This document shows positions 13,078 through 56,099 of a DNA stretch of 64,000 bases, one piece after another. Location: IMG/VR virus record IMGVR_UViG_3300044630_006741; one strand, written 5' to 3'. The position numbers were made by a program, and so were the translations under genes. The notes beneath the pieces are model-generated. The model was not told the DNA's origin, did no database searches, and saw only the letters and a program-made list of their open reading frames with translations. Each line of letters starts with the position of its first letter. Positions within the stretch are counted from its first letter, which is position 1. The DNA is from an uncultured virus (IMG/VR IMGVR_UViG_3300044630_006741) (Duplodnaviria; Heunggongvirae; Uroviricota; Caudoviricetes).

Positions 13078-13078
13078 A

Positions 13079-13279
13079 TTAGCAGAATATTCTCTTAGCT
13101 TCTGTGTAGTCATCCTTAGAAAGATCCCAGTCTTTCATTTTAGGTTTTAAGTATTCCTTTGCCTCTGCGAAAGTTCCCTTAGCGTTCTTCTTAAAGAACT
13201 TTTCAAGGTGAGAGTAGATAGCGGGATGAATTCCTTTCTTCTCCGCAATGTAAGTTTCAAAAATTTTAATGTTTTTCAT
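13079..13279 (-). CDS. small basic protein with T4 CTS-like leader
   Basis: MKNIKIFETYIAE; GATATATA on minus strand at 13287-13294. Confidence 0.7.
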   Translation of the reverse strand: MKNIKIFETYIAEKKGIHPAIYSHLEKFFKKNAKGTFAEAKEYLKPKMKDWDLSKDDYTEAKRIFC

Positions 13280-21080: not shown

Positions 21081-21555
21081 GGTAGAAAAATTCAGTGACT
21101 ATCTCTCACAGATAGAAGTAATGCCGCAGGTTAACAACGGGGAACCTTTCAGTATAGATGGGGAGAATATATCTCCATTATGTTGCTCCCTCATGGGACA
21201 CATGATGCAGGATATGCCTTTCCCTGAAGAGTCAATACCCTCTGTAATTTTCATAGAAGAAGAACAGCCAGATACGCATCCAGCTTTTAAAAGAACTGGG
21301 TACTATGACTTTAAGGATAACTGCATAAACATATACGTTACAGGCAGAGCACTTAAGGACATACTGAGATCAATCGCTCACGAGCTAATCCACGCAGACC
21401 AGCATATCAATAAGGGGCTAGATTTAAGTCCCGCAGTTACAGGATTAGGTGAGGATTCCACTAAAGCCGCTGAAGAGATAGAAGCTGATGCATATCTAAG
21501 AGGAAATCTTGGACTTAGAAAATGGGAGGATAGATTGAAACCGAAATTCAGATGA
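21073..21555 (+). CDS. HEXXH zinc metallopeptidase-like protein
   Basis: LRSIAHELIHADQ ... EADAY. Confidence 0.65.
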   Translation: MHKVEKFSDYLSQIEVMPQVNNGEPFSIDGENISPLCCSLMGHMMQDMPFPEESIPSVIFIEEEQPDTHPAFKRTGYYDFKDNCINIYVTGRALKDILRSIAHELIHADQHINKGLDLSPAVTGLGEDSTKAAEEIEADAYLRGNLGLRKWEDRLKPKFR

Positions 21556-22808
21556 TAGAAAGAGTTAAGAAATACAGGGATCTATTTGAGGGATATCAGG
21601 ATTCTGAATCGGGTAAGGAGGAGTCCAGGGGTCTAACTGAGGACCAGATTAAATTTTTAGATCTGCACTGCAGACAAAAAGGATCATGGACATATAACGA
21701 TGTAACAGGAAAGGTGGACATCAATGGGGATTTCGATGCGAGGGATTATGCACTATATGATCTAGAGGATATAGAATTTGGTGTTGTTACGGGAGTTTTT
21801 TTAATATCATCTAATAACCTAAAAACTTTAAAGGGATGCCCAGAAGTTGTAGGAGGTGATTTCTCGTGTAAAAGGAATAAGAGATTAGAGTCCCTCGAAT
21901 TTGGTCCGAAAAAGGTAGGTGGGGATTATCATTGCAATTCATGTAGCTTAGATTCTCTAAAAGGATCACCGGAAGAGGTAAAAGGTTACTTTGATTTCTC
22001 AGGTAATTACATTTACACACTAGAAGGAGGGCCTAAGGTTGTAGGAGAATCTTTTGTGGGTAAATTAAACAGTATAGAGAGTGTTGAGGGTGCTCCAAAT
22101 TTTGTTGGTGGCAGTTTCAACTTAGCACAGAATAACATAAAGAATCTAAAAGGATGCACTAAAGAAATCGAAGGTGATTTTATTATGTACTCAAACGATC
22201 TGGTTAGCTTAGAGGGAGGACCCACTAAGATTGATAAATCAGCAGATTATTTGATTTACTCAAACTCAAATCTAAAATCTCTGAAAGGATGTCCGGAGGA
22301 AACCGGTGATTTCGATGCATCAGGATGTGGATTAGAAACACTAGAGGGATCTCCTAAAATAGTTAACGGTTACTTTAATGTCTCTGAAAATAAATTAACA
22401 AGTCTAGAGGGTTCACCTGAAGAAGTTATAGGTTTATACAATTGCTCAGGCAATGAAATTAAGGACGTGGTTGGTATATCGGAATTCATAGATGGAACTA
22501 TAGATCTAGAGGACAATCCTATTGAATCACTAAAAGGATTTAATTACGAGGATCCAAAATTTCAGCTAGCTAGAACAATATGGATGACTGATCAAGACGA
22601 CATGCCAAAGGAATTTTTAAAGGACATAGCAAAGACATGCTATGCATACAAAATCTCATGGGAGCAAGGCATTATCAAGGAATGGGACAAAATGACCGAC
22701 GGAGAAAAGGTTAGAATATATAAACAGGCGAAAGACTTCCTATCCGAAGAAGACCTTAAGTACTACGGAGCTATGGAGAGATATCTTAACATGAAAAACC
22801 TATTATAG
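21552..22808 (+). CDS. 22-aa leucine-rich-repeat protein, solitary member of the array family
   Basis: About 11 repeats of NxLxSLxGxPxxVxGxFxC; same TGxVDIxGDF cap. Confidence 0.85.
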   Translation: MIERVKKYRDLFEGYQDSESGKEESRGLTEDQIKFLDLHCRQKGSWTYNDVTGKVDINGDFDARDYALYDLEDIEFGVVTGVFLISSNNLKTLKGCPEVVGGDFSCKRNKRLESLEFGPKKVGGDYHCNSCSLDSLKGSPEEVKGYFDFSGNYIYTLEGGPKVVGESFVGKLNSIESVEGAPNFVGGSFNLAQNNIKNLKGCTKEIEGDFIMYSNDLVSLEGGPTKIDKSADYLIYSNSNLKSLKGCPEETGDFDASGCGLETLEGSPKIVNGYFNVSENKLTSLEGSPEEVIGLYNCSGNEIKDVVGISEFIDGTIDLEDNPIESLKGFNYEDPKFQLARTIWMTDQDDMPKEFLKDIAKTCYAYKISWEQGIIKEWDKMTDGEKVRIYKQAKDFLSEEDLKYYGAMERYLNMKNLL

Positions 22809-23224: not shown

Positions 23225-23869
23225 ATGAAACACGTAAAAGTATTTGAAAATTTTATCAACGAGGGTATCTTTGATTCTTTAGGACTTGGTAAAATTAAGT
23301 TATTTTCTAAAGTGATGACTGACCCGTTTATTTTATCGATACTTCCAGCCATTAAGAAAATGATGGATGCAAATCTAAAGGATCAAAAAAGCTGGATAGA
23401 GGAATATAAGACAATTTTCAGAAAATCTTGCGTTAAATTCGGCGGAGCTAAGAAGGAGGATATAAAGGGAACGTGCAACAAACCGCAGACAGTTCAGAAT
23501 TTAGTACAGTACTTTTTAGATCCAGCTAAGGGACTTCTAGACACAAAGACGTTTACACAATGGGTAGAGGAAACCACAAAAGGTGCTACGCCAGGTGAGG
23601 TTCCTTATAAATATAAAATCAGCGATGTAGACAAATACGTAACAACAGCTGTTGATATTTTAAAGAAAACTGGTGTTTCTGATGGTGACATTAAGAAGAC
23701 AGGAACTTACGCTTTAACAATACTGATTCCTTATATTGCTAAATTTTATACAGCTAAGGACATTGAAGAAACACAGATGGTGAAAAGCGGAAAACTAATA
23801 GACGCAGCTAAAGCTAAAGAATTGCTTGCAGGTGGAGGTGAAAACCCCGACGGAACCATATCAATATAA
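23225..23869 (+). CDS. hypothetical protein (leader-bearing)
   Basis: Start at ATG 23225, MKHVKVFENFINE. Confidence 0.7.
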   Translation: MKHVKVFENFINEGIFDSLGLGKIKLFSKVMTDPFILSILPAIKKMMDANLKDQKSWIEEYKTIFRKSCVKFGGAKKEDIKGTCNKPQTVQNLVQYFLDPAKGLLDTKTFTQWVEETTKGATPGEVPYKYKISDVDKYVTTAVDILKKTGVSDGDIKKTGTYALTILIPYIAKFYTAKDIEETQMVKSGKLIDAAKAKELLAGGGENPDGTISI

Positions 23870-25344: not shown

Positions 25345-26763
25345 ATGAGGATAATTAACAAATTCGAGCTATTTGAAGCTCTAAACGAGGGGTCTAGAGA
25401 GATCCCGTCTAATATAATAATAGGTGATTCTCTATCACCTCTTATTGACAGAAACACAACAAAGGCTTCCCTTATAGGAAGTACAGGAAACGAGTCTAAC
25501 CTTTGGAAAGGCGGAATGGGGGTTTCTTGGTTAAAAGGAGCTGTTGATAAGTTCCCGGCAACTCCAGGTGTCAAAAATGTAATCATTGAAATTGGAACTA
25601 ACGGTGCATTTAGTTCCAGGGATGATATATCAGGTCTCGTTTCTTCAATTAAAAAGGTGTTTCCAAATGCGAAACTCTATGTTGTACAGGGGTCATGGGG
25701 ATGGGGAGGCAACGCGAAAGTAACAATAAGCGAAGTCACCGAATACTATAATAGATTCAAAGCTCTTGGGGTTGTAGTCGTTGAGCCACCAATTGGATAT
25801 TCTGCAACCGACACTGAGGCACACCAAAACAAGGAATCAATTAAAAAAATAGGAAAAAACATAGATGCTGTATTATCAGGGCAGTCACAGGTCCCAACCA
25901 ATCAAAGCCCAATAGGTGCAGATGACGTCATAATAAAAACTGATCCATCAGATAAGGATACTGTGATCTATAAATCAAAGAGTGATCCCTACTACTATAA
26001 GATAGTAAATGGCATATGGTTTGCTAAGGGTCCAAAATTAAAGCAATGGACATCACTAGAAAAAAATCAATTAGCAAACAATATACTTGATAAAAGATAT
26101 CCTGGTGTTAGATCCGGATCTGGTGAGATACAATATAAGGAACCGGTAAAAGTGGATCCTGAAAAGATAAGTGGGGATTTTATTAGCTCTGGCTCATTTG
26201 ATCCCGAGAAAGAGGATGCAGGGATATCTAAAACTTACAACATACATCTTATACCTGATAATCTATCCACAACCAAGCCTAATTACAGAAGTGCACAGAT
26301 GCCACTCAAAGATCTTAAGTATTTCCTAGAGAAGTATGGTATAAGAAACGTTATTAGACTAAATGGGGACGGCGGGGACAGCAAACACAGAAAGTCAGAT
26401 CCAGAAACTTCCATACAGGAGGAGAAAAATCTGTGCAATAGCTTGGGTGTTAAATTCAATAAGCTATCTTCAACAAAGGATCAGGATAAAGTAAACGAGA
26501 TACTCTCGGGAGGTAACACTCTAATACACTGCGCTCATGGAGCAGATAGGACTGGCGGTAATGTAGGAGGGTATTTCTACACCAAGAAGGTAAATTCAAA
26601 TCTAGACTCGACAGATGAAATCTGGAATTACACTACGAAATATAACGGATGGAATAGGATGGTGAAGAATAGCCCAGACAAGTTCTCTTCGGGTGGATAT
26701 CTTAGGCAAGCTCAAAAATTCGGGGTTAGGGATCTGGAGCAAGCAAAGTTGCTAGCCAAATAA
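25345..26763 (+). CDS. SGNH-like domain fused to a PTP/DSP-family phosphatase domain
   Basis: IIIGDS...IEIGTNG N-domain; YRSAQ..YGIRNVIRLN..LIHCAHGADRTG (CX5R). Confidence 0.75.
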   Translation: MRIINKFELFEALNEGSREIPSNIIIGDSLSPLIDRNTTKASLIGSTGNESNLWKGGMGVSWLKGAVDKFPATPGVKNVIIEIGTNGAFSSRDDISGLVSSIKKVFPNAKLYVVQGSWGWGGNAKVTISEVTEYYNRFKALGVVVVEPPIGYSATDTEAHQNKESIKKIGKNIDAVLSGQSQVPTNQSPIGADDVIIKTDPSDKDTVIYKSKSDPYYYKIVNGIWFAKGPKLKQWTSLEKNQLANNILDKRYPGVRSGSGEIQYKEPVKVDPEKISGDFISSGSFDPEKEDAGISKTYNIHLIPDNLSTTKPNYRSAQMPLKDLKYFLEKYGIRNVIRLNGDGGDSKHRKSDPETSIQEEKNLCNSLGVKFNKLSSTKDQDKVNEILSGGNTLIHCAHGADRTGGNVGGYFYTKKVNSNLDSTDEIWNYTTKYNGWNRMVKNSPDKFSSGGYLRQAQKFGVRDLEQAKLLAK

Positions 26764-26767
26764 AATT

Positions 26768-26796
26768 AAAAAAGCAATCAATCGATTGCTTTTTTT
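26768..26796. terminator. bidirectional intrinsic terminator
   Basis: AAAAAAGCAATC-AATC-GATTGCTTTTTTT between convergent units. Confidence 0.8.
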
Positions 26797-26809: not shown

Positions 26810-27868
26810 TTATATGATTCTTCCCCTGTACCTAGATAATGCCTCATATCCTTTCTTCTCCTCAGGAGAGAGATCTTGGTTATGCTTGGCTAGGTAGATT
26901 CGGTCTTCCTCTGTGGTATTATTCCAGCACAGTGCCACTGCCTCTTCAAAAGTAATATTTTCTTCCTCCATGGATAAAAAAATCTTCCGGACAGCAGCTT
27001 GAGTGATCGGATTGGCTGAGAAGTATATTTCTCCTTCCACAATCTGGGGTGCTCCCTCCAAAGAGGTAATGTTATTTGCTCTGCAATAAAAAGAACCCTC
27101 TATAATCCGTGGTGCCCCCTTTAAAGAGGTAAGCGAGTTGTCGGAGCAATCAAAATACGAGTTTATTATTTCCGGTGCCCCATCTAAGGAGGTAAGCTGG
27201 TTTTTAGAACACATATATCCTCCGCCTACTTTCTGTGGGCCTCCTTCTAATGATTTAAGATTGTCACCGGAGCATTCAAAAGTTCCCTTTATGATCTGTG
27301 GTGCCCCCTTTAGAGAGGTGAGAGGATTTCTGGAGCAATCGAAACTATTTTCTATAGTCTGAGGTGCTCCCTTTAGAGAAGTGAGCAAGTTATCGGAACA
27401 ATTGTATGCACCACCCACGCTCAGCGGTGCTTTCTCTAAAGATGTGATTGAATTATAGGAGAAATTGAAATTGCCACCTATCTTCTGGGGTGCTCCCTCT
27501 AGGGATGTCAGTTTGTTACCGGAACAATGAAAATGCCCGCCCACTTCCTGAGGTGCTCCTTTTAGAGATGTGAGTCTGTTGTTACTGCAATCGAAACCTC
27601 CTCTAATTACTTTTAGGGGTGCTCCTTCCAGAGAGGTGAGATAATTATTAGGGAAAGCGAAATGTCTACTAACGTTACCAAATCTCACTCCTTTAAAATC
27701 TGTCAGATTTCCCCAGGAGCATCTAAAATCACCATCGATATCAACAAGTCCAGTCTCTGGATTAATCGTCCAGGTTCCCTTTACGCACTCGTCAAGCCAT
27801 TCTCTCTGCTCCAGATTGAGCTCCTGCACGTTTTCGTATAGCTCGTGATATCCTTTAATGTGTCTCAT
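26810..27868 (-). CDS. LRR-array protein (10 repeats)
   Basis: 22-aa NxLTSLxGAPxxVxGxFxCS repeats between conserved caps. Confidence 0.9.
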   Translation of the reverse strand: MRHIKGYHELYENVQELNLEQREWLDECVKGTWTINPETGLVDIDGDFRCSWGNLTDFKGVRFGNVSRHFAFPNNYLTSLEGAPLKVIRGGFDCSNNRLTSLKGAPQEVGGHFHCSGNKLTSLEGAPQKIGGNFNFSYNSITSLEKAPLSVGGAYNCSDNLLTSLKGAPQTIENSFDCSRNPLTSLKGAPQIIKGTFECSGDNLKSLEGGPQKVGGGYMCSKNQLTSLDGAPEIINSYFDCSDNSLTSLKGAPRIIEGSFYCRANNITSLEGAPQIVEGEIYFSANPITQAAVRKIFLSMEEENITFEEAVALCWNNTTEEDRIYLAKHNQDLSPEEKKGYEALSRYRGRII

Positions 27869-27879
27869 GTTTCTATATA

Positions 27880-28809
27880 TTATAGCACTCTCTTCTTTAG
27901 CCTAGCTAGTGCTTCATATCCTTTAATTTCATCTGGTGAAAGATCAGGATTGTGCTTGGCTAAGTATGCCTTGTCGTCATCTGGTATTATTTCCCAGAAA
28001 TACGCGACCGCCTGTTCTAATTTGATTTTAGAATGGTCCATAAGAGCGATAATTCTATCGATTGATTCTTGAGATATCGGGTTACCGTTGGAACGTATAT
28101 AGTCATCATCGATCGGAGGAGCTCCTTCCAAACTTGTGAGTTGATTATTTGCACAATTGAAATATCTACCAACACTATTAGGGGCTCCCTTTAGTGAAGT
28201 GATCTTATTATAGGAACACCTAAAATCCCTTCCAACCTCAAGGGGTCCTCCCTCTAGGGTGGTAAGCGAGTTAGCATTGCAAAAGAAATCACCTGTCACG
28301 ATTTGTGGTGCTCCCTCTAGCGAGGTGAGTCTGTTGCCATAGCACCGGAAACTACCGTCCTCGACCAGTGGTGCTCCCTCTAGGGAAGTTAGCCGATTCG
28401 TGGAACAATCGAAATCTGAAGGGACTTTCTGAGGTGCTCCTTTTAGGGAGACGAGTTTGTTGCTGTAGCATAAGAATCTACGTCCCACTTCCTGTGGTGA
28501 ACCCTCGAGTGAGGTTAACCAATTACCATAGCACAGAAAATCCACACCCACGCTTTGTGGTGCTCCTTCTAATGAAGTGATATCATTTGTGCCACAGTTA
28601 AAATTACCGCTAACATGTCCGAATTTTACACCATTAAAACCCTTAATTTGCTGAGCCCTACAATCGAAATCACCCTCCACATCAACCAATCCGGTATCAG
28701 GATTAAGACTCCACTTGCCACCAGTGCATTTATCTAGCCACCCGATCTGATCTGGTGTTAATTCTGGGCTATTCTCAAATATGTCTATAAATCTCTTGAC
28801 GTGCCTCAT
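27880..28809 (-). CDS. LRR-array protein (8 repeats)
   Basis: Same repeat and caps. Confidence 0.9.
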   Translation of the reverse strand: MRHVKRFIDIFENSPELTPDQIGWLDKCTGGKWSLNPDTGLVDVEGDFDCRAQQIKGFNGVKFGHVSGNFNCGTNDITSLEGAPQSVGVDFLCYGNWLTSLEGSPQEVGRRFLCYSNKLVSLKGAPQKVPSDFDCSTNRLTSLEGAPLVEDGSFRCYGNRLTSLEGAPQIVTGDFFCNANSLTTLEGGPLEVGRDFRCSYNKITSLKGAPNSVGRYFNCANNQLTSLEGAPPIDDDYIRSNGNPISQESIDRIIALMDHSKIKLEQAVAYFWEIIPDDDKAYLAKHNPDLSPDEIKGYEALARLKKRVL

Positions 28810-29417
28810 ATCACTCTCTTCTTTAGTCTAGCTAGTGCTTCATACTCTCTTATCTCCTCCTGTGAGAGTCTTGGATTATATTGGGCAAGTAGTGCTCGAT
28901 CGTCTTCATCCATATCGTCCCACTGCATCTCAACAGCTTCATACCAGTCCATGCCGGATTTCATTCGCTTATAGAGAGCTTTCAATGTGGGGTTAGAAAC
29001 TGGATTGTCCCAGCAAAGAAATTCATTTCGAATACCCTCGGGTAACCCCTCTAGTGAGGTTAGCTGGTTTCCGTAGCAATAGAAATTCCTCCCAACCTTC
29101 TGTGGTGCACCCTTTAGTGAGGTGAGCTGGTTATTATGACAATAGAAACCATTTCCAACATTCTGTGGTGCTCCCTCTAAGGAGGTGAGCTGGTTGTTTC
29201 GACACCAGAAATCACTGGTTACCTCCCCGAATTCCACACCCTTAAAATCTGTCAGTTTCTGTTCAGAACAATTGAAATCACCATCTATATCAACCAGCCC
29301 AGTTTCTGGATTACGTATCCACATTCCTCTTGTGCACTTATCGAGCCACTCGATCTGTTCTGGTGTTAATGGAGTTCTAGCTTCAAAAAGCTCTTGATAC
29401 CTCTTTACGTGCTTCAT
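28806..29417 (-). CDS. LRR-array protein (3 repeats)
   Basis: Same repeat and caps; ATGA overlaps. Confidence 0.9.
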   Translation of the reverse strand: MKHVKRYQELFEARTPLTPEQIEWLDKCTRGMWIRNPETGLVDIDGDFNCSEQKLTDFKGVEFGEVTSDFWCRNNQLTSLEGAPQNVGNGFYCHNNQLTSLKGAPQKVGRNFYCYGNQLTSLEGLPEGIRNEFLCWDNPVSNPTLKALYKRMKSGMDWYEAVEMQWDDMDEDDRALLAQYNPRLSQEEIREYEALARLKKRVI

Positions 29418-30403
29418 AATACTCTCTTCTTTAGTCTAGCTATTGCTTGATACTCTCTTATCTCCTCTGGCGTGAGTCTAGGATTGTACTGTGCCACTAG
29501 TGCCCTATCGTCTTCATTCATATCGTCCCACAGCATCTCAACAGCTTCTTCCCAGGACATCCCTGATTTCATCTTCCTATAGAGAGATTTAAGCACGAGT
29601 ACAGAAACTTGATTTCCCTCACAATAAAGATCACCGCCAATCTTTTTCGGTACCCCCTCTAGTGAGATGAGCTGATTGTCCGCACAATTGAAATCTGTCC
29701 CAACTTTCCGGAGTGTTCCCTCTAGTGAGGTGAGCTGGTTACGTGAACAATTAAATCTACCATCAACAGTCTGGGGTGCTCCCTCTAATGTGATGAGCTG
29801 ATTATCAGAACACTTGAAATTCCCACCAACCCGCTGTGGAGCTCCCTCTAGTGTGGTCAGCTGATTTCTTTCACACCAGAAACTTCCTCCAACCTGTTGG
29901 GGAGCTCCCTCCAGTGAGGTGAGCTGGTTGTTCCCACAATAGAAATCCAACCAAATCTTCTGTGGCACTCCCTCTAGTGACGTGATGTAGTTATCGGAGC
30001 AAGTGAAATGATCTCCAACCTCCTTTGGCGCATTCACCAGTGAGGTAATCTGATTATCCGAACAATCGAAAGCCTTTCCAATCCGCTGTGGTGCCCCGTC
30101 TAGAGACGTGAGCTGATTGTCATAGCAAAAGAATCCTCTCAAAACCTCCTGTGGTGCCCCCTCCAGTGAGGTAAGCTGATTTCCGTTGCACCAGAAATCT
30201 CCTCTCACCACTCCAAATTTAACTCCCCTCAAATCTGTCAGGTCCTGTTCACTACAATAAAAAGTACCATTCACATTAACAAGTCCTGTTTGGGAATCGA
30301 GTGTCCATGTATCTTTAGTGCAGGAATCCAGCCACTCGATCTGCTCCTGTGTTAATCGAGTTTGGGCTTCAAAAAGCTCTTGATATTTCTTGACGTGTCT
30401 CAT
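29414..30403 (-). CDS. LRR-array protein (9 repeats)
   Basis: Same repeat and caps. Confidence 0.9.
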   Translation of the reverse strand: MRHVKKYQELFEAQTRLTQEQIEWLDSCTKDTWTLDSQTGLVNVNGTFYCSEQDLTDLRGVKFGVVRGDFWCNGNQLTSLEGAPQEVLRGFFCYDNQLTSLDGAPQRIGKAFDCSDNQITSLVNAPKEVGDHFTCSDNYITSLEGVPQKIWLDFYCGNNQLTSLEGAPQQVGGSFWCERNQLTTLEGAPQRVGGNFKCSDNQLITLEGAPQTVDGRFNCSRNQLTSLEGTLRKVGTDFNCADNQLISLEGVPKKIGGDLYCEGNQVSVLVLKSLYRKMKSGMSWEEAVEMLWDDMNEDDRALVAQYNPRLTPEEIREYQAIARLKKRVL

Positions 30404-31140
30404 AGTATTCTCTTTTTAAATCTACCTAGTGCTTCGTATCCCTTTACTTCCTCCGGAGATAACGTGGGGTTATAGGGAGCCAATACGGCTAGGTCTTCCG
30501 GGTCCTTTATCTTCTCCCAGTATCTGACCAGTGATTCAGTAAAGCTATGTCCGGTCTTCATGCCAATATAGATCCATTGAAAGGTCGGAGAAGAAACCGG
30601 GTTATCGTGTAATTCTAAAGTTCTTCCAATATATTTGGGCAAGCCCTCTAAAGAAACGATCTGGTTGCGAGGGAAAGCGAGATACCCACCAACGGAATCA
30701 GGAGATCCCTCTAGAGAGGTAAGAAAGTTTCTACCACAGTCGAAATAACCACCAACCCTCCTGGGCGCACCCTTTAGGGAGACGAGATTATTACGCGAGC
30801 AATTGTAATCCCACTTAACAATAGAAGGCCCTCCCTCTAGTGTGGTGAGCTGATTGTCATAGCAGTAGAAATTGTTCCCTACCTCCTGTGGTGAACCGTC
30901 CAGAGAGGTGATATTATTATAAGAGCAATCGAAATTTCCATCAACCTTTCCAAATCTCACTCCTTTAAAATCAGTTAGATCCTTTCTATGAACCCTGAAA
31001 TTGCCCTCTATGTCAACCAGACCTGTTTCAGGATTAATGGACCAACTTCCGTCGGTCCACATATCTAACCATTTGATCTGCTCGGGTGTTAATTCGGTTT
31101 GTGATTCAAATAGCTCTTGGTATCCCTTGACGTGCTTCAT
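30400..31140 (-). CDS. LRR-array protein (5 repeats)
   Basis: Same repeat and caps; GATATATA at 31146-31153 on minus strand. Confidence 0.9.
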   Translation of the reverse strand: MKHVKGYQELFESQTELTPEQIKWLDMWTDGSWSINPETGLVDIEGNFRVHRKDLTDFKGVRFGKVDGNFDCSYNNITSLDGSPQEVGNNFYCYDNQLTTLEGGPSIVKWDYNCSRNNLVSLKGAPRRVGGYFDCGRNFLTSLEGSPDSVGGYLAFPRNQIVSLEGLPKYIGRTLELHDNPVSSPTFQWIYIGMKTGHSFTESLVRYWEKIKDPEDLAVLAPYNPTLSPEEVKGYEALGRFKKRIL

Positions 31141-31157
31141 GCTCTTATATATCGGGA

Positions 31158-31697
31158 TTAGTTGAGACCAATCCTACGCTGACCGAGACACTGACCTAAT
31201 AAGTCACCTGAGACCTGCTGTGGTTGCATGCCCTGTTCTCTAATGGCCCACTGCACAAAGTCTATAATAGTGGGTCCATCCAATTCTTGAGCTGCTGGCA
31301 AAGCGGAGATTTTGCGAACTAGAGCCGCTTCCTCGTCTGTGACATCATCAGATTCAAAAGGCCAGTCCTGAGTGATGATCTCGTACTCGTCTCCCCCTAG
31401 GTACCAGATCACTGAGATGCCCCAGTCTTCCTCGTATTCTGCCCAGATGCCGATCTTAGTGCCCGCTGCTCTTTTAAGGGTCTCGTGGTAACCCAGGAAT
31501 TCCCCATCATCTTCTATTTGGTCGCCGTTGACGGATAAAGGCAGAGCCTCAAGAGCAGCCCAGTCGTTTATCCAGTCTGGTCCATAGGCCCAGTCAAGCA
31601 GTTCTTTTAGAGTGGATTTATAGTTGCGTTCAGAATCTTGGTCCTCACCTCCTTTCTGAATCCACTGCCATGTTTCCCAAAGTCGGATGTGTTTCAT
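31158..31697 (-). CDS. acidic Trp-rich non-LRR protein within the LRR array
   Basis: MKHIRLWETW leader; ATGA overlap with the upstream LRR gene. Confidence 0.75.
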   Translation of the reverse strand: MKHIRLWETWQWIQKGGEDQDSERNYKSTLKELLDWAYGPDWINDWAALEALPLSVNGDQIEDDGEFLGYHETLKRAAGTKIGIWAEYEEDWGISVIWYLGGDEYEIITQDWPFESDDVTDEEAALVRKISALPAAQELDGPTIIDFVQWAIREQGMQPQQVSGDLLGQCLGQRRIGLN

Positions 31698-32374
31698 ATA
31701 ACTCTTTTCTTTAATCTCGCTAGTGCCTCGTACCCTCTTCTCTCTTCTGGCGAGAGATCAGGTTTATGTCCAGCCAGATAGGCTCTATCCTCTTCTGGAA
31801 TATCAGGCCAGCACTTGCTCACAGCTTCTTCTAGAGTGAGCTCTTCCTTGCTCATCTTCTGAAGCACGACTTTCATAGACTCTTCAGATATCGGGTTGCC
31901 CTCACAGTAGAAAAACCTGCCCACTGATTGTGGTGCCCCATCTAAGGAAGTGATGTAGTTATCGCAGCAGGAGAAATCTCCACCGACTATCTCTGGGCTT
32001 CCCTCTAGTGAAGAGAGACGGTTACGGTCACAGTAGAAATTACCATCCACTGTCTGAGGTGCCCCTTCGAGTGTGGTAAGAGAGTTAGAGGAACAATAGA
32101 AATTACCGCCCACTTTCTGGGGTGCTCCCGCTAAGGAAGTGAGAGAGTTATTCTCGCAATAGAAACCCTTCCAGACATTTCCAAATCTTACACCCTTGAA
32201 ATCTGTCAGCCTCTGTCCTGAGCATTCAAAAAATCCCCTGACATCAACCAGTCCAGTCTGTGGATTTAGCTCCCAAATTCCGCGGGATGAGTCATCCAGC
32301 CACTCGATCTGCCCGGGTGTTAGCTCTGTTTGGCTCTCGAATAGTTGATCGAATGCCTTAATGTGTCTCATCAT
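31694..32374 (-). CDS. LRR-array protein (4 repeats)
   Basis: Same repeat and caps. Confidence 0.9.
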   Translation of the reverse strand: MMRHIKAFDQLFESQTELTPGQIEWLDDSSRGIWELNPQTGLVDVRGFFECSGQRLTDFKGVRFGNVWKGFYCENNSLTSLAGAPQKVGGNFYCSSNSLTTLEGAPQTVDGNFYCDRNRLSSLEGSPEIVGGDFSCCDNYITSLDGAPQSVGRFFYCEGNPISEESMKVVLQKMSKEELTLEEAVSKCWPDIPEEDRAYLAGHKPDLSPEERRGYEALARLKKRVI

Positions 32375-33132
32375 AAATACCCCTTTATTTTAGCGTATGT
32401 GGCTAGAGCCTTGTACTTTCTCGCATCTTCCGGGGGTAAATCCGGCATTTGTTTATACATTACTGACCTATCTTCTTCTCCCATATTAGGCCAGTATTCT
32501 TCTAGGGCCTGCTGATATCTCATTCCTTTTAGCATTAGCTCAAAAATGGCTTTTAAAGTCTTTTCAGAGACCGGATTGTCACTACAAGAGAAATCCAAAG
32601 AGGAGCCCCATCTGCTCTCCTGTGGTGCTCCTTCGAGTGAAGTGATTTGATTCTTATCGCAAGCGAAAACCCCGCCAACGCTCTGAGGTGCTCCTTCGAG
32701 AGTGGTGAGCCGATTATCATAACAATTGAAATACCCTCTAGTGGTCTGAGGTGCTCCCTTTAGTGTGGTGAGCTGATTTCCATTACAAAAGAAACCACCA
32801 ACGCTCTGAGGTGCTCCCTCTAGTGTGGTGAGTCGATTACCATAACAAAAGAAACTAGCGCCAACACTCTGTGGTGCTCCCTCTAGTGTGGTGAGCTGAT
32901 TGTTAGCACAAGAGAAATCCCCACCAACTGTCCCGAATTTAACTCCTTTAAGATCTTCTAAATTCTGTGAGTTACAATTGAAATTTCCTTTCACATCCAC
33001 AAGCCCCGTGGAAGTGTTAAGCTCCCAGCTGCCGGATGTGCATTCATTCAGCCAGTCAATCTGCTCTGCTGTAAGTTCTTCTGGTGCTGCTGCACTGGCT
33101 TCAAATATCTGATATGGCTTAATGTGTCTCAT
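32371..33132 (-). CDS. LRR-array protein (5 repeats)
   Basis: Same repeat; KIKGYL-type C-cap. Confidence 0.9.
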   Translation of the reverse strand: MRHIKPYQIFEASAAAPEELTAEQIDWLNECTSGSWELNTSTGLVDVKGNFNCNSQNLEDLKGVKFGTVGGDFSCANNQLTTLEGAPQSVGASFFCYGNRLTTLEGAPQSVGGFFCNGNQLTTLKGAPQTTRGYFNCYDNRLTTLEGAPQSVGGVFACDKNQITSLEGAPQESRWGSSLDFSCSDNPVSEKTLKAIFELMLKGMRYQQALEEYWPNMGEEDRSVMYKQMPDLPPEDARKYKALATYAKIKGYL

Positions 33133-34001
33133 TATAAATATCCCTTTATTTTATTGTATGTGCCTAGAGCCTTGTAAGTTCTCACATCTTCCTGAGGTAA
33201 ATTCGGCATTTGTTTATACATTAAAGCCTTATCTTCATCTCCCATCTTAGGCCAGAGTTTTTCTAGAGCCTGCTGATACCCCATTCCTTTTAGCATTAGC
33301 AAAAAGATGGATTTTAAAGTCGTTTCAGAGACTGGATTATCACTACAATATAAACTACCGCCAACACTCTGAGGTGCTCCCTCCAGTGAGGTGAGACGAT
33401 TGTTCTCACAATAGAAATTTCCGACAATGGTCTGAGGTGCTCCCTCTAGTGAGGTGAGCTGATTGTTAGCACAATAGAAATACCTTCTAATGTTCTTAGG
33501 TGCTCCCTTTAGTGTGGTGAGCCGATTGTTACCACAAAAGAAAATCCCACCAACGGTCCGAGGTGCTCCCTCTAGTGAGGTGAGCTGATTGTTATCGCAA
33601 AGGAAATCCCCACCAACGGTCAGAGGTGCTCCTTTTAGTGTGGTGAGCTGATTTCCATGACAATAGAAAACCCAACTAACACTCCGAGGTGATCCCTTTA
33701 GTGTGGTGAGCTGGTTGTTATTACAAACGAAACCTCCACCAACTTTCTTAGGTGCTCCCTCTAGCGTGGTGAGCTGATTGCTATCACAATAGAAATACAA
33801 CTCAACTTTCCCGAACTTAACACCTTTAAAATCTTCTAAATCCTGCGAGCTACAATCGAAATTCCCATCCACATCAACAAGCCCTGTAGAAGTGTTAATC
33901 TTCCATCTGCCGGATGTGCATTGATTCAGCCACTCGATCTGCTCGGGTGTTAGCTCTGTTTGGCTCTCGAATAGTTGACTGTATGGCTTAATGTGTCTCA
34001 T
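33132..34001 (-). CDS. LRR-array protein (7 repeats)
   Basis: Same repeat; KIKGYL-type C-cap. Confidence 0.9.
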   Translation of the reverse strand: MRHIKPYSQLFESQTELTPEQIEWLNQCTSGRWKINTSTGLVDVDGNFDCSSQDLEDFKGVKFGKVELYFYCDSNQLTTLEGAPKKVGGGFVCNNNQLTTLKGSPRSVSWVFYCHGNQLTTLKGAPLTVGGDFLCDNNQLTSLEGAPRTVGGIFFCGNNRLTTLKGAPKNIRRYFYCANNQLTSLEGAPQTIVGNFYCENNRLTSLEGAPQSVGGSLYCSDNPVSETTLKSIFLLMLKGMGYQQALEKLWPKMGDEDKALMYKQMPNLPQEDVRTYKALGTYNKIKGYL

Positions 34002-34609
34002 AGTACTCTTTTTCTTAGTCTCCCTAGTGCCTGGTAACTCTTTAGATCATCAGGAGACAGAGTGCGGTTATAAGGAGCCAGCAGGACCTTATCTTCATCG
34101 GATTCAATGGAATCCCACTCCTCCGCAACAGCATCCGGCCAGCTCATACCAGATCGCATTATATCATGGATATCTTCTAGCGCCTCTTCAGAGACGGGAT
34201 TGCCTGAGCAATAGAAACTCTTTCCAATCCAAGAAGGTGCTCCCTCCAGGGAAGTGAGCTGGTTTTTGGAGCAATCGAAATTCCCCTCCACTTGCTGGGG
34301 TGCTCCCTTTAGGGAAGTGAGCTGGTTGTTAATACAATAGAAATCACTACCAACACTCTGTGGTGCTCCATCCAAAGAGGTGAGCTTGTTGTAGGAGCAA
34401 TAGAAGTGCCCAGCCACTCCAAATCTCACACCTTTAAAATCAGTCAGACCCTGATCATAGCAATTGAAACCCTCTTTCACATCAACAAGGCCAGTTTGGG
34501 GATTAAGGGTCCACTTTCCAATAGCGCATTCATCCAGCCACTCGATCTGCTCGGGTGTTAGCTCTGTTTGACTCTCGAATAACTGATCATACAGCTTAAT
34601 GTGTTTCAT
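33998..34609 (-). CDS. LRR-array protein (3 repeats)
   Basis: Same repeat and caps. Confidence 0.9.
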   Translation of the reverse strand: MKHIKLYDQLFESQTELTPEQIEWLDECAIGKWTLNPQTGLVDVKEGFNCYDQGLTDFKGVRFGVAGHFYCSYNKLTSLDGAPQSVGSDFYCINNQLTSLKGAPQQVEGNFDCSKNQLTSLEGAPSWIGKSFYCSGNPVSEEALEDIHDIMRSGMSWPDAVAEEWDSIESDEDKVLLAPYNRTLSPDDLKSYQALGRLRKRVL

Positions 34610-35355
34610 TATAAATACCCCTTTATTTTAGCGTATGTGGCTAGAGCCTTGTACTTTCTCGCATCTTCCAGGGGTAAATTCGGCATTTGTTTATACATTA
34701 AAGCCTTATCTTCATCGCCCATCTTAGGCCAGTATTGTTCTAAAGCCTGTTGATAATCCATTCCTTTTTCCATTAGCGCAAAGATGGAATACAAAGTTGA
34801 TTCAGAGGCTGGATTACCCTCACAATTGAAACTCCCTTTAACGGTCTGAGGTGCTCCCTCTAGTGAGGTGAGCCCATTGTCATTACAAAAGAAATGCCCA
34901 CCAACGGTCTGAGGTGCTCCCACCAGTGAGGTGAGCTGATTGTCGTCACAACTGAAACTCCCTTTAACGGTCTGAGGTGCTCCCTCAAGACTCGTGAGAT
35001 GATTGTCGTCACAATCGAAACGCCCGCCAACCTTCTGAGGTACTCCCTCTAGTGAGGTGAGTCGATTAGAATAACAAAAGAAATCACCGCCAACACTCCG
35101 AGGTGCTCCCTCTAGTGTGGTGAGCTGATTATAACCACAATGGAAATCCCCACTCACTTCGCCAAATCTGATACCCCTAAAATTTGGCAGACCCTTATTA
35201 GTACAATCGAAATCGCCATCCACATCAACCAGTCCAGTTTGTGGATTAAGCTCCCAAATTCCGCGGGATGTGAACTTATTCAGCCACTTGACCTGTTCCT
35301 GAGAGAGCTCTGTTTGACTCTCGAATAGTTCTTTATAGCTCCTGACATGTCTCAT
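34609..35355 (-). CDS. LRR-array protein (5 repeats)
   Basis: Start placed at MRHVRSYKELFE (ATG 35355); GATATATA at 35361-35368 on minus strand. Confidence 0.9.
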   Translation of the reverse strand: MRHVRSYKELFESQTELSQEQVKWLNKFTSRGIWELNPQTGLVDVDGDFDCTNKGLPNFRGIRFGEVSGDFHCGYNQLTTLEGAPRSVGGDFFCYSNRLTSLEGVPQKVGGRFDCDDNHLTSLEGAPQTVKGSFSCDDNQLTSLVGAPQTVGGHFFCNDNGLTSLEGAPQTVKGSFNCEGNPASESTLYSIFALMEKGMDYQQALEQYWPKMGDEDKALMYKQMPNLPLEDARKYKALATYAKIKGYL

Positions 35356-35399
35356 GTCTCTATATATCAAAACCGATGGGGGATGTTTCAGGGAAAATC

Positions 35400-36350
35400 G
35401 CTAGACCCCCGGCCCACCAGATAGTTATGACTCTTTCCTTTCCATATAGACAAGAGACTACTAGACATAGAGAGAACTAGAGAGACACAAAGAGAGACTA
35501 GACATAGAGAGCATACTCAATACACCAACTCTTACTCTAAACAACCAAACACTCACACCCATCTCAATAGACACAAGCATAGGCATAGACCTATTACTCT
35601 AGAGAGACGGCATAGACAAGACCTAGCATAGAGAGAGACTAGAGAGTAGACTAGACACCCCAGTCATGACTTAACATAGGGAGCTTTAGTTACCCCAGCC
35701 AGGGACATCCCATAGGACTCAGACAAGACCCATTAGAAGGACCTAGCAGAAGATAGCTTATACAGCTTGGCCAGGTGACGTCATAAGTACTAGACCAGGT
35801 GAGGTCATGCGAACTTAACAGAGGTGTCATATACAGCTTGGCCAGGTGAGGTCATGCGAACTAGGCCCTCCTAGTAAGCCCGCTCCAGGGCCGAGTCCAC
35901 CACCCAGGGTCCATGGTCTCCAGGCTATCCGAGTTTCCGCGAAGCCCCAGTCTCAACCTCCAGGTCTCTCAGTCCTCCTCGGCCGAGTCTGGAATCCTGG
36001 TAAGCAGTGGAGATTTGTGGAGATTTGTGGGGATTTCTGGGATTCCCCAGAGGCCATGCCCAGATCCGCCCCGTGTTCGCCCCGATTGCTCGGTCTCTCT
36101 ATGTGTCTAGGCTCGCCCCGTATAATCTCTCGCCTCTCTCTCTATGTCTCTCTAGTAGTCTGAGTTCTTCTCTCTTGTCTACTAGGAAAGGAAACTCTTG
36201 GATTAAATATTTCGGTGGCGAAATTTTTTTACGGTGGGCCGAGTTTTTCCTGCCACGTGAAATTTTGTTTAGGTTGTTTGTGGGTGTCCGCGGTTTCTCA
36301 GTAACCCAGCCATATATAGTTTTAAACAAGCGAACAGTTAATAAAAAAAT
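35400..36350. other. repeat-rich non-coding region at the transcriptional divergence point (origin or terminus candidate)
   Basis: AGAC/TAGA/GAGA simple repeats, inverted counterpart near 36093-36186, short direct repeats, no credible ORF. Confidence 0.5.
35759..35862 (+). repeat. three direct repeats of CCAGGTGA(C/G)GTCAT
   Basis: Copies at 35771, 35795 and 35842; flanks TATACAGCTTGG (x2) and GCGAACT (x2). Confidence 0.9.
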
Positions 36351-36363
36351 AAAAATCAACCCC

Positions 36364-36591
36364 ATGAAAAAAGAAACTTTGTCCCGGAAAAAAACTAAAA
36401 TATACAAAGGGACAGAAGTAAAGATTAAGCAAGCTAAATCAGAGCACGAGAGATTCTACTCTGTGTTTGGCTTTGAAGACAATGTCTACGATGAAGTGAG
36501 CACTAGGGTTCGCATGTCTACCAGGATCTGGCAGAGCATCAAAGGCTTTCTTCTCATTGGGCTGAGCTTCATTAACTCTCTGCCTCTCTAA
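36364..36591 (+). CDS. hypothetical protein
   Basis: Start placed at ATG 36364 (MKKETLSRK). Confidence 0.5.
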   Translation: MKKETLSRKKTKIYKGTEVKIKQAKSEHERFYSVFGFEDNVYDEVSTRVRMSTRIWQSIKGFLLIGLSFINSLPL

Positions 36592-36604
36592 AGGAAATTA
36601 ATTT

Positions 36605-36901: not shown

Positions 36902-36955
36902 CTTTTTTTAAACCCACCCAGGGTTCTACGGGAACCTGGATTACATTTGAGACAT

Positions 36956-37682: not shown

Positions 37683-37701
37683 TTTTTCTTCGAATACTAA
37701 G

Positions 37702-55868: not shown

Positions 55869-56099
55869 ATGAACCATATCAAATTATACGAGGACTTCGG
55901 ACAAGAGCCGGAGATTGACTTCACCAAAATTGACAGCATCGAGTTCGATGGTGTAGACCACAGTGACGCACCAGACTACTCAGACGCATTCATAATCAGC
56001 TGTGACATAGATGGTAGACCAGCCACTGAGGAAGAGTTGGACATCATTAACAACGATTCAGAGTTCGTTTACAACTCACTAATGGATCAACTCTCTTAA
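55869..56099 (+). CDS. acidic leader-bearing protein
   Basis: MNHIKLYEDF; D.PDYSDAFI motif; GATATATA at 55846. Confidence 0.7.
   Translation: MNHIKLYEDFGQEPEIDFTKIDSIEFDGVDHSDAPDYSDAFIISCDIDGRPATEEELDIINNDSEFVYNSLMDQLS

What the first reader, a model, noticed from the sequence alone, without database searches (positions are those of the whole stretch)
26810..35355. Tandem repertoire of ten variable LRR proteins: a possible antibody-like binder library in a phage
Seen: ten co-oriented, mostly translationally coupled genes share one design: leader, conserved N-cap (ELTxEQxxWLxxCTxGxWxxNPxTGLVDxxGxFxC), then 3-10 copies of a 22-aa repeat, then a helical C-cap. By hand I count 10, 8, 3, 9, 5, 4, 5, 7, 3 and 5 repeats (about 59). 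The framework NxLTSLEGAPxxVxGxFxC is nearly fixed, while the x positions around F-x-C-x-x-N vary widely (Y, W, D, N, S, H, R, G). An 11th member lies at 21552-22808 and a degenerate relative at 17523-18620. Established: in LRR solenoids the exposed beta-strand residues form the ligand-binding face, and lamprey VLRs use this cap/variable-repeat/cap logic. Inference: a diversifying set of protein binders, expressed late and possibly packaged in the head and injected, e.g. to neutralise host defence proteins. This is the best candidate here for an undescribed system.
Basis: partly seen in the sequence, partly recalled or inferred. Interest (0 to 1): 0.88.

Follow-up and report, generated by a model that had tools for sequence, protein, structure and literature searches.

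The report
Tagged LRR binder gene array, lake phage
A large uncultured lake-water phage carries ten back-to-back genes for small leucine-rich-repeat binding proteins that differ mainly on their predicted binding face and all start with a short tag resembling the one phage T4 uses to load proteins into its head, so they may be injected binders of host proteins, though no experiment shows this.

Summary
Ten co-oriented paralogous genes (26810-35355, minus strand) share one design: leader, N-cap, repeats, helical C-cap. An 11th member and a degenerate relative are confirmed.

The fold is a confident LRR solenoid, closest to IpaH/SspH/YopM and InlJ. The variable residues alternate with core Phe/Cys in the concave strand.

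It is a fixed set of paralogs, not an antibody-like diversifier.
- Orthologs are under purifying selection (omega 0.42 at variable positions).
- The array is near-identical in independent lake metagenomes.
- There is no retroelement signature.
- Gene content does change, by unequal crossing-over in repeat register (9-gene versus 10-gene forms, and a differently composed array in a roughly 89%-identical relative).

The 12-residue leader (M-R/K-H-I/V-K-x-Y/F-x-x-L-F-E) resembles the T4 capsid-targeting sequence. Unrelated proteins of the same phage carry it. Both complete related phages examined encode a T4 gp21-type prohead protease.

Head packaging and injection are therefore plausible but unproven. 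The proteins are acidic, unlike T4 internal proteins.

The family is large, found only in viral records here, unnamed, and often arrayed in huge phages. This scan has noted it before on other DNA.

The parts
34609..35355 (-). LRR gene 10 (248 aa from the ATG at 35355; 5 repeats; C-cap subtype ending ...KIKGYL)
   Evidence: protein identical in G001
33998..34609 (-). LRR gene 9 (203 aa; 3 repeats)
   Evidence: 0 nt differences to G001
33132..34001 (-). LRR gene 8 (289 aa; 7 repeats; the only non-acidic member, mature pI 7.4)
   Evidence: its 5' part is fused to gene 7 in G001 and in an X20 contig
32371..33132 (-). LRR gene 7 (253 aa; 5 repeats, one of 20 aa)
   Evidence: 3' partner of the hybrid gene in G001 and X20
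31694..32371 (-). LRR gene 6 (225 aa from MRH; 4 repeats)
   Evidence: ortholog in G002 with dN/dS 0.25
31158..31697 (-). Embedded non-LRR gene (179 aa, pI 4.2, Trp-rich, ORFan), overlapping gene 6 by 4 nt. Its homologs start MKHIKIYE / MKYLESFEHFTNIGE, which is leader-like.
   Evidence: absent at this place in G002; AF2 model poor (pLDDT 50.8)
30400..31140 (-). LRR gene 5 (246 aa; 5 repeats)
29414..30403 (-). LRR gene 4 (329 aa; 9 repeats); the modelled member
28806..29417 (-). LRR gene 3 (203 aa; 3 repeats); no counterpart in the G002 array
27880..28809 (-). LRR gene 2 (309 aa; 8 repeats); no counterpart in the G002 array
26810..27868 (-). LRR gene 1 (352 aa; 10 repeats); last gene of the run
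   Evidence: 91% identical ortholog in G002
26768..26795 (-). Terminator-like hairpin (12-bp stem plus T run) just after gene 1
   Evidence: a consensus match only; the number found in the region equals the shuffle expectation
35371..36600 (.). About 1.2 kb without convincing genes upstream of the array. It has TCTCTCTA/GTCTAG-type short repeats, three copies of a 38-nt direct repeat, and inverted arms at 35434-35497 and 36134-36194. Possibly a divergent control region.
   Evidence: more diverged from G001 than the array itself
21552..22808 (+). 11th, divergent family member (418 aa; leader MIERVKKYRDLFE, N-cap, degenerate repeats, C-cap)
   Evidence: probability 100%, E 1.8e-40; ortholog in G002 with dN/dS 0.18
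17523..18620 (+). Degenerate relative (365 aa; starts MRNILSFSLFES; internal N-cap-like segment plus about two repeats)
   Evidence: probability 89%, E 2.4e-6
25345..26763 (+). Non-LRR protein with the same kind of leader (MRIINKFELFEA...), 472 aa, pI 9.1, with a C-terminal HCxxGxxR phosphatase-like motif
   Evidence: (Pfam DSPc / Y_phosphatase3 only at E 0.07-0.09)
23225..23869 (+). Non-LRR protein with leader MKHVKVFENFINE (214 aa, pI 9.0, unknown)
12493..13279 (-). Two adjacent non-LRR genes with leaders MRHIKIYEDF (12493-13077) and MKNIKIFETYIAE (13079-13279)
55869..56099 (+). Small non-LRR ORF with leader MNHIKLYEDF (76 aa)

Best explanation
The locus is a germline multigene repertoire of small, soluble, mostly acidic LRR binding proteins that is specific to large tailed phages.

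Architecture. Each protein is a 21-residue Cys/Asn-ladder LRR solenoid with 4 to 11 turns. It sits between a conserved N-cap and a four-helix C-cap. The ligand face is set by the outward residues of the concave strand and the following loop (repeat positions 14, 16, 18, 19, and also 10 and 21).

Proposed mechanism. Each paralog presents a different, evolutionarily conserved face, so each probably binds its own target. A roughly 12-residue N-terminal tag precedes the fold (M-R/K-H-I/V-K-x-Y/F-x-x-L-F-E, then S or A). I propose it works like the T4 capsid-targeting sequence. It would load the protein into the prohead core and then be cut after the Glu by a gp21-type prohead protease. The mature binders would travel in the head and enter the host with the DNA, where they bind host proteins (defence or takeover targets) before any phage gene is expressed.

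Evolution. The repertoire changes by unequal crossing-over in repeat register and by gene gain and loss, not by hypermutation.

Shown: the fold class, where the variability lies, purifying selection, structural variants, the tag's N-terminal specificity and its presence on unrelated proteins, and gp21-type proteases in complete relatives.

Inferred: exposure of the variable residues, packaging, cleavage, injection and the nature of the targets.
For: Fold.
- AF2 on a 54-sequence alignment gives pLDDT 93.9 and pTM 0.86.
- Foldseek's top hits are SspH1, YopM, SspH2 and IpaH LRR domains.
- PDB sequence hits are SspH2 (2.8e-14) and InlJ (8.2e-14).
- Strands fall on repeat positions 14-16, alternating with core F15 and C17.

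Each face is conserved.
- Ortholog omega is 0.42 at variable and 0.20 at framework positions. Amino-acid differences are 30 of 186 against 42 of 469 (odds ratio 1.96, p 0.012).
- 0 amino-acid changes in 5 LRR genes against G001.
- Long pieces in runs X3, X6 and X20 show 0 differences.

Repertoire turnover.
- G001 and an X20 contig carry a gene-8/gene-7 hybrid (joint 32872 to 33751), giving 9 genes.
- The G002 array lacks genes 2 and 3, has other members and holds a 684-aa fibre-like gene.

Tag.
- A leader regex found 17 hits in all window frames: 10 LRR genes, 6 other plausible gene starts and 1 internal site.
- In the complete relative G003 it found 14 hits in 991 frames: 8 LRR and 6 non-LRR. 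Thirteen lie within 17 codons of the frame start and one at codon 84.
- 130 of 149 family representatives have a hydrophobic-x-E end within 15 residues (LFE 56, IFE 22, VFE 15), followed by S 64 or A 21. A few members lack the leader and start right at the N-cap.
- Residues 1-13 of the model have low pLDDT.

Comparison with T4.
- The T4 capsid-targeting sequence is MKTYQEFIAE and is cleaved off (PMC8442874 passage).
- T-even internal proteins are diverse anti-restriction proteins that share only this sequence (PMC3012670 passage).
- T4, phiKZ and SPN3US proteases cut after Glu in short motifs, and SPN3US paralogs share an identical N-terminal propeptide (PMC5694885 passages).

Protease.
- Peptidase_S77 is above the curated cut-off in 2 of 2 complete phages with leader-type arrays. 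It was found in 0 of 3 incomplete ones.
- In G003 it lies next to a gp23-type capsid gene. That capsid protein's N-terminus holds IIE-S, ITE-E and LNE-S.

Viral-only distribution.
Against: - No virion proteomics and no expression data exist. No RNA run was listed.
- The prohead protease of this phage itself could not be examined. Peptidase_S77 was not found in G001 (17% complete) or G002 (66% complete), and no head module was found in the parts of those contigs examined.
- 9 of 10 LRR proteins are acidic (mature pI 4.5-5.3). T4 IPI-III are described as highly basic (PMC8442874 passage).
- The array is not next to head genes, here or in G003.
- The tag is short, and Lys-rich N-termini are common in AT-rich genomes.
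- Many other phage lineages with this repeat type have different N-termini, and one (Vibrio phage SRILMA) has no such leader or caps.
- The similar 'capsid-address leader' note of this scan (e1-5468953) is marked 'part of it fell'.
- No target is known.
Confidence: 0.4

Rival explanations
1. The proteins are binders made during infection and are not packaged. They would act as host-takeover or anti-defence factors, or as adaptors that bring targets to another phage or host machine. The conserved N-terminus would then serve translation, stability or capping of the solenoid.
For: - Everything that supports 'binder repertoire' applies equally.
- The proteins are acidic, unlike basic T4 internal proteins.
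- The array is an operon-like run far from head genes.
- No S77 protease was seen in G001 or G002.
- G002 encodes a ClpP (PF00574, 187 bits), so a protease-adaptor role is conceivable.
Against: - The same tag sits on unrelated proteins of different folds.
- The tag is outside the confident fold.
- The tag is absent from some family members that start exactly at the N-cap.
- It ends in the L/I/V-F-E motif followed by a small residue, which fits proteases that cut after Glu.
Confidence: 0.33
2. The proteins are virion-surface accessory adhesins. The caps would dock them on fibres or the capsid, and the LRR face would bind host surface structures and widen host range.
For: - In G002 a 684-aa fibre-like gene (collagen-like stretch at Pfam E 0.0021, below the cut-off) lies inside the array.
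- The window has a tail-fibre gene with Mtd_N plus collagen, and a PA14/GLEYA protein.
- The Goslar preprint (passages read) proposes virion fibre proteins with LRR/beta-helix domains for host recognition.
Against: - No known docking domain is present: Pfam and PHROGs give nothing for the caps.
- The proteins are small monomer-like solenoids without trimerisation motifs.
- The tag-and-cleavage pattern is not explained.
- The fibre-like gene is absent from the window's array.
Confidence: 0.1
3. The array is an actively diversifying, antibody-like library, driven by a retroelement or by hypermutation or cassette conversion at the variable codons.
For: - The cap / variable-repeat / cap design, variable repeat number and high entropy at the concave positions resemble lamprey VLRs.
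- A tail-fibre gene with an Mtd_N domain is in the window.
Against: - Omega is below 1 at the variable positions.
- The array is 99.9-100% identical to G001 while the flanks differ by 1-10%.
- Long pieces from three other lake runs show 0 differences (contigs drop rare variants).
- Substitution rates per consensus base are A 0.30, T 0.31, G 0.28 and C 0.23, so there is no adenine bias. Repeat units are old, with a maximum of 56 of 63 nt identical.
- No reverse transcriptase appeared among the window proteins scanned with Pfam. This was not every ORF.
- There are no partial cassettes.
Confidence: 0.02

Closest known systems
T-even phage internal proteins (IPI, IPII, IPIII, Alt) with the capsid-targeting sequence
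   Same: - A short N-terminal tag ending in Glu is shared by otherwise diverse proteins. Compare T4 MKTYQEFIAE with M-R/K-H-I/V-K-x-Y-x-E-L-F-E here.
- Both are non-essential-looking, variable gene sets.
- The T4 proteins have an anti-defence role (IPI* against GmrSD).
- A gp21-type protease is present in complete relatives.
   Different: - The fold is LRR.
- There are 10-11 paralogs in one operon-like run.
- The proteins are acidic rather than highly basic.
- Packaging and cleavage are not shown.
- The protease of this phage was not seen.
LRR domains of type III effectors IpaH / SspH1 / SspH2 / SlrP / YopM (short bacterial LRR class)
   Same: - These are the best sequence and fold matches.
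- Both have short repeats of 20-22 residues.
- These effectors bind host proteins on the concave face after delivery into a target cell (general knowledge).
   Different: - There is no NEL ligase domain. The C-terminal part is a 65-aa helical cap without a conserved Cys.
- Each repeat has a Cys in the core.
- The caps differ.
- These proteins are phage-encoded.
Listeria internalin J (PDB 3bz5), the cysteine-ladder LRR
   Same: A Cys occupies a core LRR position in every repeat (entry title; sequence hit at 8.2e-14). That InlJ's period is also 21 residues is recalled, not checked.
   Different: - InlJ is a secreted, wall-anchored surface protein.
- These proteins have no signal peptide or anchor and have different caps.
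Lamprey and hagfish variable lymphocyte receptors
   Same: The cap / variable-number LRR / cap layout, with diversity concentrated on the concave strand. Hagfish VLR appears at Foldseek rank 48.
   Different: - VLRs are assembled somatically from cassettes (recalled).
- Here all members are complete germline genes that are stable across populations.
- The caps are helical, not disulfide-rich.
Ejection-protein paralog families of giant phages (SPN3US gp53/gp54, phiKZ gp93)
   Same: Diverged paralogs keep an identical N-terminal propeptide that is cut after Glu by the prohead protease (PMC5694885 passages).
   Different: The fold differs. Those proteins were found in virions by mass spectrometry; these have not been tested.

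Membership tests
LRR superfamily (short bacterial class) | Repeated LxxLxLxxNxL core with a regular period of 20-30 residues | tested here: met
   F15-x-C17-x-x-N20-x-L1 occurs in 59 repeats. 48 of 53 spacings are 21 aa.
LRR superfamily (short bacterial class) | Curved solenoid fold with a parallel sheet on the concave side | tested here: met
   AF2 pLDDT 93.9. Foldseek matches to SspH1, YopM, SspH2 and IpaH have probability 1.00 and E of 1e-4 to 1e-3.
LRR superfamily (short bacterial class) | Pfam LRR model above the gathering score | tested here: inconclusive
   LRR_4 is above the 27-bit cut-off in 2 of 10 paralogs (28.8 and 32.0 bits), below it in 4, and gives no hit in 4.
IpaH/SspH NEL E3-ligase effectors | C-terminal NEL domain with a catalytic Cys | tested here: not met
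   Only a 65-aa four-helix cap follows the repeats, with no invariant Cys there. PDB matches cover the LRR part only.
Internalins | N-terminal signal peptide and a cell-wall anchor | tested here: not met
   There is no hydrophobic N-terminal stretch in any of the 10 proteins (a simple hydropathy test, not SignalP). No anchor motif was seen in the C-caps.
T4-type capsid-targeted internal proteins | N-terminal tag of about 10 residues ending in Glu, shared by unrelated cargo proteins | tested here: met
   All 10 LRR genes plus at least 6 other window genes carry it. In G003 there are 8 LRR and 6 non-LRR hits. 130 of 149 representatives carry it. The likeness to MKTYQEFIAE is by eye.
T4-type capsid-targeted internal proteins | A gp21-family (Peptidase_S77) prohead protease in the same genome | tested here: inconclusive
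   Not found in G001 or G002, which are fragments in which no head module was found in the parts examined. Found in 2 of 2 complete relatives with leader-type arrays and in 0 of 3 incomplete ones.
T4-type capsid-targeted internal proteins | Presence in the mature head, with the tag removed | not testable with these tools
   Needs virion mass spectrometry.
T4-type capsid-targeted internal proteins | Basic, DNA-associated small proteins (IPI-III) | tested here: not met
   9 of 10 have a mature pI of 4.5-5.3. This is a property of IPI-III rather than a strict definition of cargo.
Lamprey VLR-type somatic diversification | An incomplete germline gene completed from flanking LRR cassettes | tested here: not met
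   All 10 are complete ORFs with caps. The sequence is stable across strains and lakes.
Diversity-generating retroelement target | Reverse transcriptase plus a template/variable repeat pair with adenine-specific changes | tested here: not met
   No adenine bias and no near-identical unit pair. No RT appeared among the proteins scanned (not every ORF was scanned).

The most novel reading that the evidence does not exclude
Huge and jumbo phages with T4-type heads may carry, pre-loaded in the capsid, a heritable 'pre-immune' library of LRR binders that is injected with the DNA. Each paralog would neutralise or capture a different host defence or sensor protein. Unequal crossing-over in repeat register would create and delete specificities, so the composition of the array would help set host range. 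This would be a protein-delivered counterpart of host LRR/NLR-type immunity, and a natural scaffold library of compact Cys-ladder binders.
Probability: 0.2. Interest if true: 0.85.

Novelty: new variant of a known kind. Interest (0 to 1): 0.6.

Why it matters
If the tag really loads these proteins into the head, large phages inject many different ready-made protein binders, not only DNA. That would be a large, unexplored class of first-minute counter-defence or takeover effectors.

The family is big. The N-cap profile finds 744 clusters at 50% identity. Arrays reach 14 genes within one 21-kb locus.

It was found only in viral records in my tests, and it has no name in Pfam or PHROGs. The proteins are small and confidently modelled, and their variable faces are naturally diversified, which makes them attractive as binder scaffolds.

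Even without packaging, the locus gives a clear case of how a phage binder repertoire evolves. Each specificity is kept under purifying selection, while the gene set is reshuffled by recombination in repeat register.

Tried and rejected
- Own assembly: not held.
- megablast of 20 kb against phage records: no match.
- Phage-record protein search: 20 records. Only Vibrio phages SRILMA and TDDLMA (repeat part only, other caps) and three uncultured huge-phage records are close. Listeria and Lak records match at 25-27% and are generic LRR.
- Cellular genomes: 40 pattern matches, 0 confirmed relatives. The patterns were N-cap specific, so distant LRR kin are not excluded.
- T4 late promoter TATAAATA: 5 matches against 3.5 expected, none placed before the array.
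- Sigma-70 and terminator scans: at shuffle level.
- Expression: no RNA holder listed.
- Read laying used contigs only, so rare variants cannot be seen. Joints with short sides (under about 50 nt) in X6 and X14 were not used. The X14 joint 31155 to 31696, which would remove exactly the 179-aa gene, has a side of only 30 nt and is a weak hint.
- The 179-aa embedded protein has no Pfam, PHROG or Atlas hit and only 4 homolog clusters. Its AF2 model has pLDDT 50.8, so no fold search was run on it.
- G002 'head maturation protease' (phrog_94) is a ClpP among metabolic genes and was not taken as the prohead protease.
- Literature on phage LRR arrays: searches found no description of this family. Only loosely related mentions turned up (a coral vibriophage LRR-like protein, passages of PMC10945359; Goslar LRR fibre proteins). 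Subscription journals and supplements were not covered. Matsushima et al. 2021 on viral LRRs was seen only as a reference and not read.
- Complex prediction was not used because no specific partner is claimed.

Full report
**What is there**

One search lists ten co-oriented minus-strand genes between 26810 and 35370: 352, 309, 203, 329, 246, 226, 253, 289, 203 and 253 aa (248 aa from the ATG at 35355). One unrelated 179-aa gene (31158-31697) sits between the fifth and sixth. Eight of the ten junctions in this eleven-gene run overlap by 1 or 4 nt. The other two are gaps of 11 and 17 nt. A terminator-like hairpin follows the last gene (26768-26795), but hits of that kind were no more frequent than in shuffles.

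The ten proteins are 48-55% identical to the first. They share a 12-residue leader, an N-cap, a run of repeats and a roughly 65-residue helical C-cap.

My repeat parse gives 10, 8, 3, 9, 5, 4, 5, 7, 3 and 5 LTSL-type repeats, 59 in all. The period is 21 residues, not 22: 48 of 53 spacings are 21, four are 22 and one is 20.

Over 48 internal units, L1, T2, L4, G6, P8, V11, F15, C17 and N20 are nearly fixed (0.15-0.97 bits). Positions 10, 14, 16, 18, 19 and 21 carry 2.7-3.3 bits and are rich in D, N, S, Y, H, G, R and F.

The 11th member at 21552-22808 has the full architecture (hhalign probability 100%, E 1.8e-40). The 17523-18620 protein is a weak relative (probability 89%, E 2.4e-6).

The leader is not a secretion signal, because no hydrophobic stretch exists in any of the ten.

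**What kind of protein**

Pfam sees only weak LRR_4: above the cut-off in 2 of 10 paralogs, below it in 4, and no hit in 4. PHROGs gives two families of unknown function.

Against PDB sequences the best matches are SspH2 (2.8e-14), InlJ (8.2e-14) and SspH1.

AlphaFold2 on a 54-sequence alignment models gene 4 with pLDDT 93.9 and pTM 0.86. Only the first 13 or so residues have low confidence. Foldseek ranks the LRR domains of SspH1, YopM, SspH2 and IpaH first.

DSSP puts the main strand on repeat positions 14-16. F15 and C17 are therefore the inward LxL residues, N20 is the ladder Asn, and 14, 16 and 18 are the outward residues of the concave sheet.

Each repeat has one core Cys, as in the InlJ cysteine ladder (entry title).

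Nine of the ten proteins are acidic, with mature pI 4.5-5.3.

**Genome context**

The window has a tail-fibre gene (Mtd_N plus collagen), a PA14/GLEYA protein, an SLT lysozyme, a sigma-like factor, eight tRNAs and many small ORFs.

Three related viral records were used:
- G001 is a 47-kb fragment of nearly the same phage.
- G002 is a 181-kb contig, about 89% identical in DNA and 66% complete. It has a baseplate, T4-style replication genes and a gp23-family protein, and no head module was found in the parts examined.
- G003 is a complete 290-kb phage that carries arrays of the same leader type.

Twenty-four lake-water metagenome runs hold 79-98% of the array's sampled words. This is therefore a large freshwater myovirus-like phage.

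Independent contigs bridge the composition shift at 27-31 kb with 0 differences, so the join is not an assembly chimera.

**How the array evolves**

Against G001, five LRR genes and the 179-aa gene (4,203 nt) show 3 nucleotide differences and 0 amino-acid changes in the LRR genes. The flanks from 35.7 to 48.7 kb differ by roughly 1-10% per 500 nt.

G001 has one gene fewer. A clean hybrid joins the first 80 or so codons of gene 8 to gene 7 inside the first repeat. A contig of run X20 carries the same joint (32872 to 33751, side 206 nt), and that run has no depth over the skipped part. So 9-gene and 10-gene forms coexist in nature.

The G002 array is differently composed. It has orthologs of genes 1, 4, 5 and 6, no genes 2 and 3, other members upstream, and a 684-aa fibre-like gene where the window has the 179-aa gene.

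For the four ortholog pairs, dN/dS is 0.24-0.30, against 0.05-0.29 for six flanking control genes. By site class it is 0.42 at variable positions, 0.20 at framework positions, 0.32 in the N-cap and 0.22 in the C-cap. Variable positions change about twice as often as framework ones: 30 of 186 against 42 of 469, p 0.012. They remain under net purifying selection.

Repeat units are old: at most 56 of 63 nt are identical and the mean is 60%. Substitutions show no adenine bias.

So this is a stable germline repertoire, remodelled by recombination in repeat register. It is not a hypermutating library.

**The leader**

All ten proteins start M-R/K-H-I/V-K-x-Y/F-x-x-L/I-F/Y-E, followed by S, A or N.

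A regex for this pattern, run over every ATG in every frame of the window, found 17 sites. Ten are the LRR genes, six are plausible starts of unrelated genes (12493, 13079, 19344, 23225, 25345 and 55869), and one is internal. The 11th member, the degenerate relative and homologs of the 179-aa protein have similar starts.

In G003 the pattern hit 14 of 991 frames: 8 LRR and 6 non-LRR. Thirteen lie within 17 codons of the frame start and one at codon 84.

Among the 150 best representatives of an N-cap profile search, 149 start with M. Of these, 130 have a hydrophobic-x-E end within 15 residues (LFE 56, IFE 22, VFE 15), followed by S (64) or A (21). A few members lack the leader and begin at the N-cap.

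Three papers supply the T4 comparison, all read as passages:
- PMC8442874 gives the T4 capsid-targeting sequence as MKTYQEFIAE, cleaved off after loading.
- PMC3012670 describes T-even internal proteins as diverse anti-restriction proteins that share only this sequence.
- PMC5694885 reports that T4, phiKZ and SPN3US prohead proteases cut after Glu in short motifs, and that diverged SPN3US paralogs keep an identical N-terminal propeptide.

Peptidase_S77 scored above its cut-off in 2 of 2 complete phages with leader-type arrays, and in 0 of 3 incomplete ones. In G003 it lies next to a gp23-type capsid gene. That capsid protein's N-terminus holds IIE-S, ITE-E and LNE-S.

This makes head loading and cleavage plausible. 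It proves nothing for this phage. Its own head module is not in the held contigs, the proteins are acidic unlike T4 IPI-III, and the array is not near head genes.

**Distribution**

- The big protein collection gave 7,265 hits among 8,000 scored candidates, which is a capped figure.
- The N-cap profile found 744 clusters at E 1e-3 or better and 301 at 1e-10 or better among 1.84 billion representatives. Nearly all matches start at residue 1.
- In IMG/VR, 483 of 569 candidate stretches encode relatives. Within the 65 loci kept, my regex found 191 members. 29 loci have at least 2, 16 have at least 5, and one 21-kb locus has 14.
- Each phage lineage has its own leader and caps around the same repeat type.
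- Cellular genomes gave 0 confirmed relatives with N-cap patterns.
- The nearest Atlas clusters are 100% viral.
- No paper describing these arrays turned up in four searches, within the limits of that library.
- This scan has noted the same family repeatedly on other DNA. Those are AI notes, not independent evidence, and one related note is marked as partly fallen.

**Verdict**

The best reading is a phage-specific, leader-tagged repertoire of LRR binders with conserved individual specificities. It is probably delivered with the virion or acts very early against host proteins. I put the packaged-and-injected mechanism at about 0.4, an intracellular, non-packaged binder role at about 0.33, virion-surface adhesins at about 0.1, and active antibody-like diversification at about 0.02.

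It is a new variant of known kinds: a short bacterial-type LRR fold combined with T4-style cargo tagging.

Noticed in passing
window 25345-26763 (+): A 472-aa basic protein has the same kind of leader (MRIINKFELFEA) and a C-terminal HCxxGxxR(T) phosphatase-like motif. Pfam sees DSPc / Y_phosphatase3 only at E 0.07-0.09. The G002 ortholog is only 257 aa and lacks the N-terminal half.
   Followed up: partly
window 23876-24940 (+): A 354-aa protein has a lipoprotein-like start (…LALSSC) and long Tyr/Gly/Asn-rich and Ser/Pro/Thr-rich low-complexity regions. The gene is absent from the collinear G002 region: the alignment jumps from 25002 to 23867.
   Followed up: partly
window 35371-36600: About 1.2 kb has no convincing gene. 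It carries TCTCTCTA/GTCTAG-type short repeats, three copies of a 38-nt direct repeat (35759-35867), and inverted arms at 35434-35497 and 36134-36194. It is much more diverged from G001 than the adjacent array.
   Followed up: partly
window 29500-35300 versus 35700-48700: Against G001 the LRR array is 99.9-100% identical, while the neighbouring 13 kb differs by about 1-10% per 500 nt. This could reflect a recent sweep or exchange of the array between strains, or an assembly effect. It is unexplained.
   Followed up: partly
window 1-26000 versus 28000-64000: Base composition shifts from about 37-39% G+C on the left to 44-49% on the right. The change falls inside the array (genes 1-2 at about 41%). 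Independent contigs bridge it.
   Followed up: partly
L013:3981-6035 (G002): A 684-aa fibre-like protein, with an N-terminus like the window's tail-fibre gene and a collagen-like stretch, lies inside the G002 LRR array where the window has the 179-aa gene.
   Followed up: partly
window 45701-47599 and 60168-60411: There are eight tRNA genes (Arg, Tyr x2, Met x2, Leu, Ser, Cys) with a GIY-YIG homing-endonuclease-like gene (45916-46458) among them.
   Followed up: no
window 3220-5324 (+): A tail-fibre gene with an Mtd_N domain and collagen repeats is followed by a PA14/GLEYA carbohydrate-binding protein. No reverse transcriptase was seen among the ORFs scanned.
   Followed up: no
window 13361-14407 (+) and 19344-20192 (+): A glutamine-synthetase-like protein (Gln-synt_C 7e-23) and a leader-bearing 282-aa protein with a weak OmpA-like peptidoglycan-binding motif (E 0.017).
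   Followed up: no
L079:6108-6833 and 11308-12201 (G002): A ClpP protease (PF00574, 187 bits) and a short 297-aa gp23-family protein lie among NAD-salvage and tRNA-repair genes, away from any head module.
   Followed up: partly
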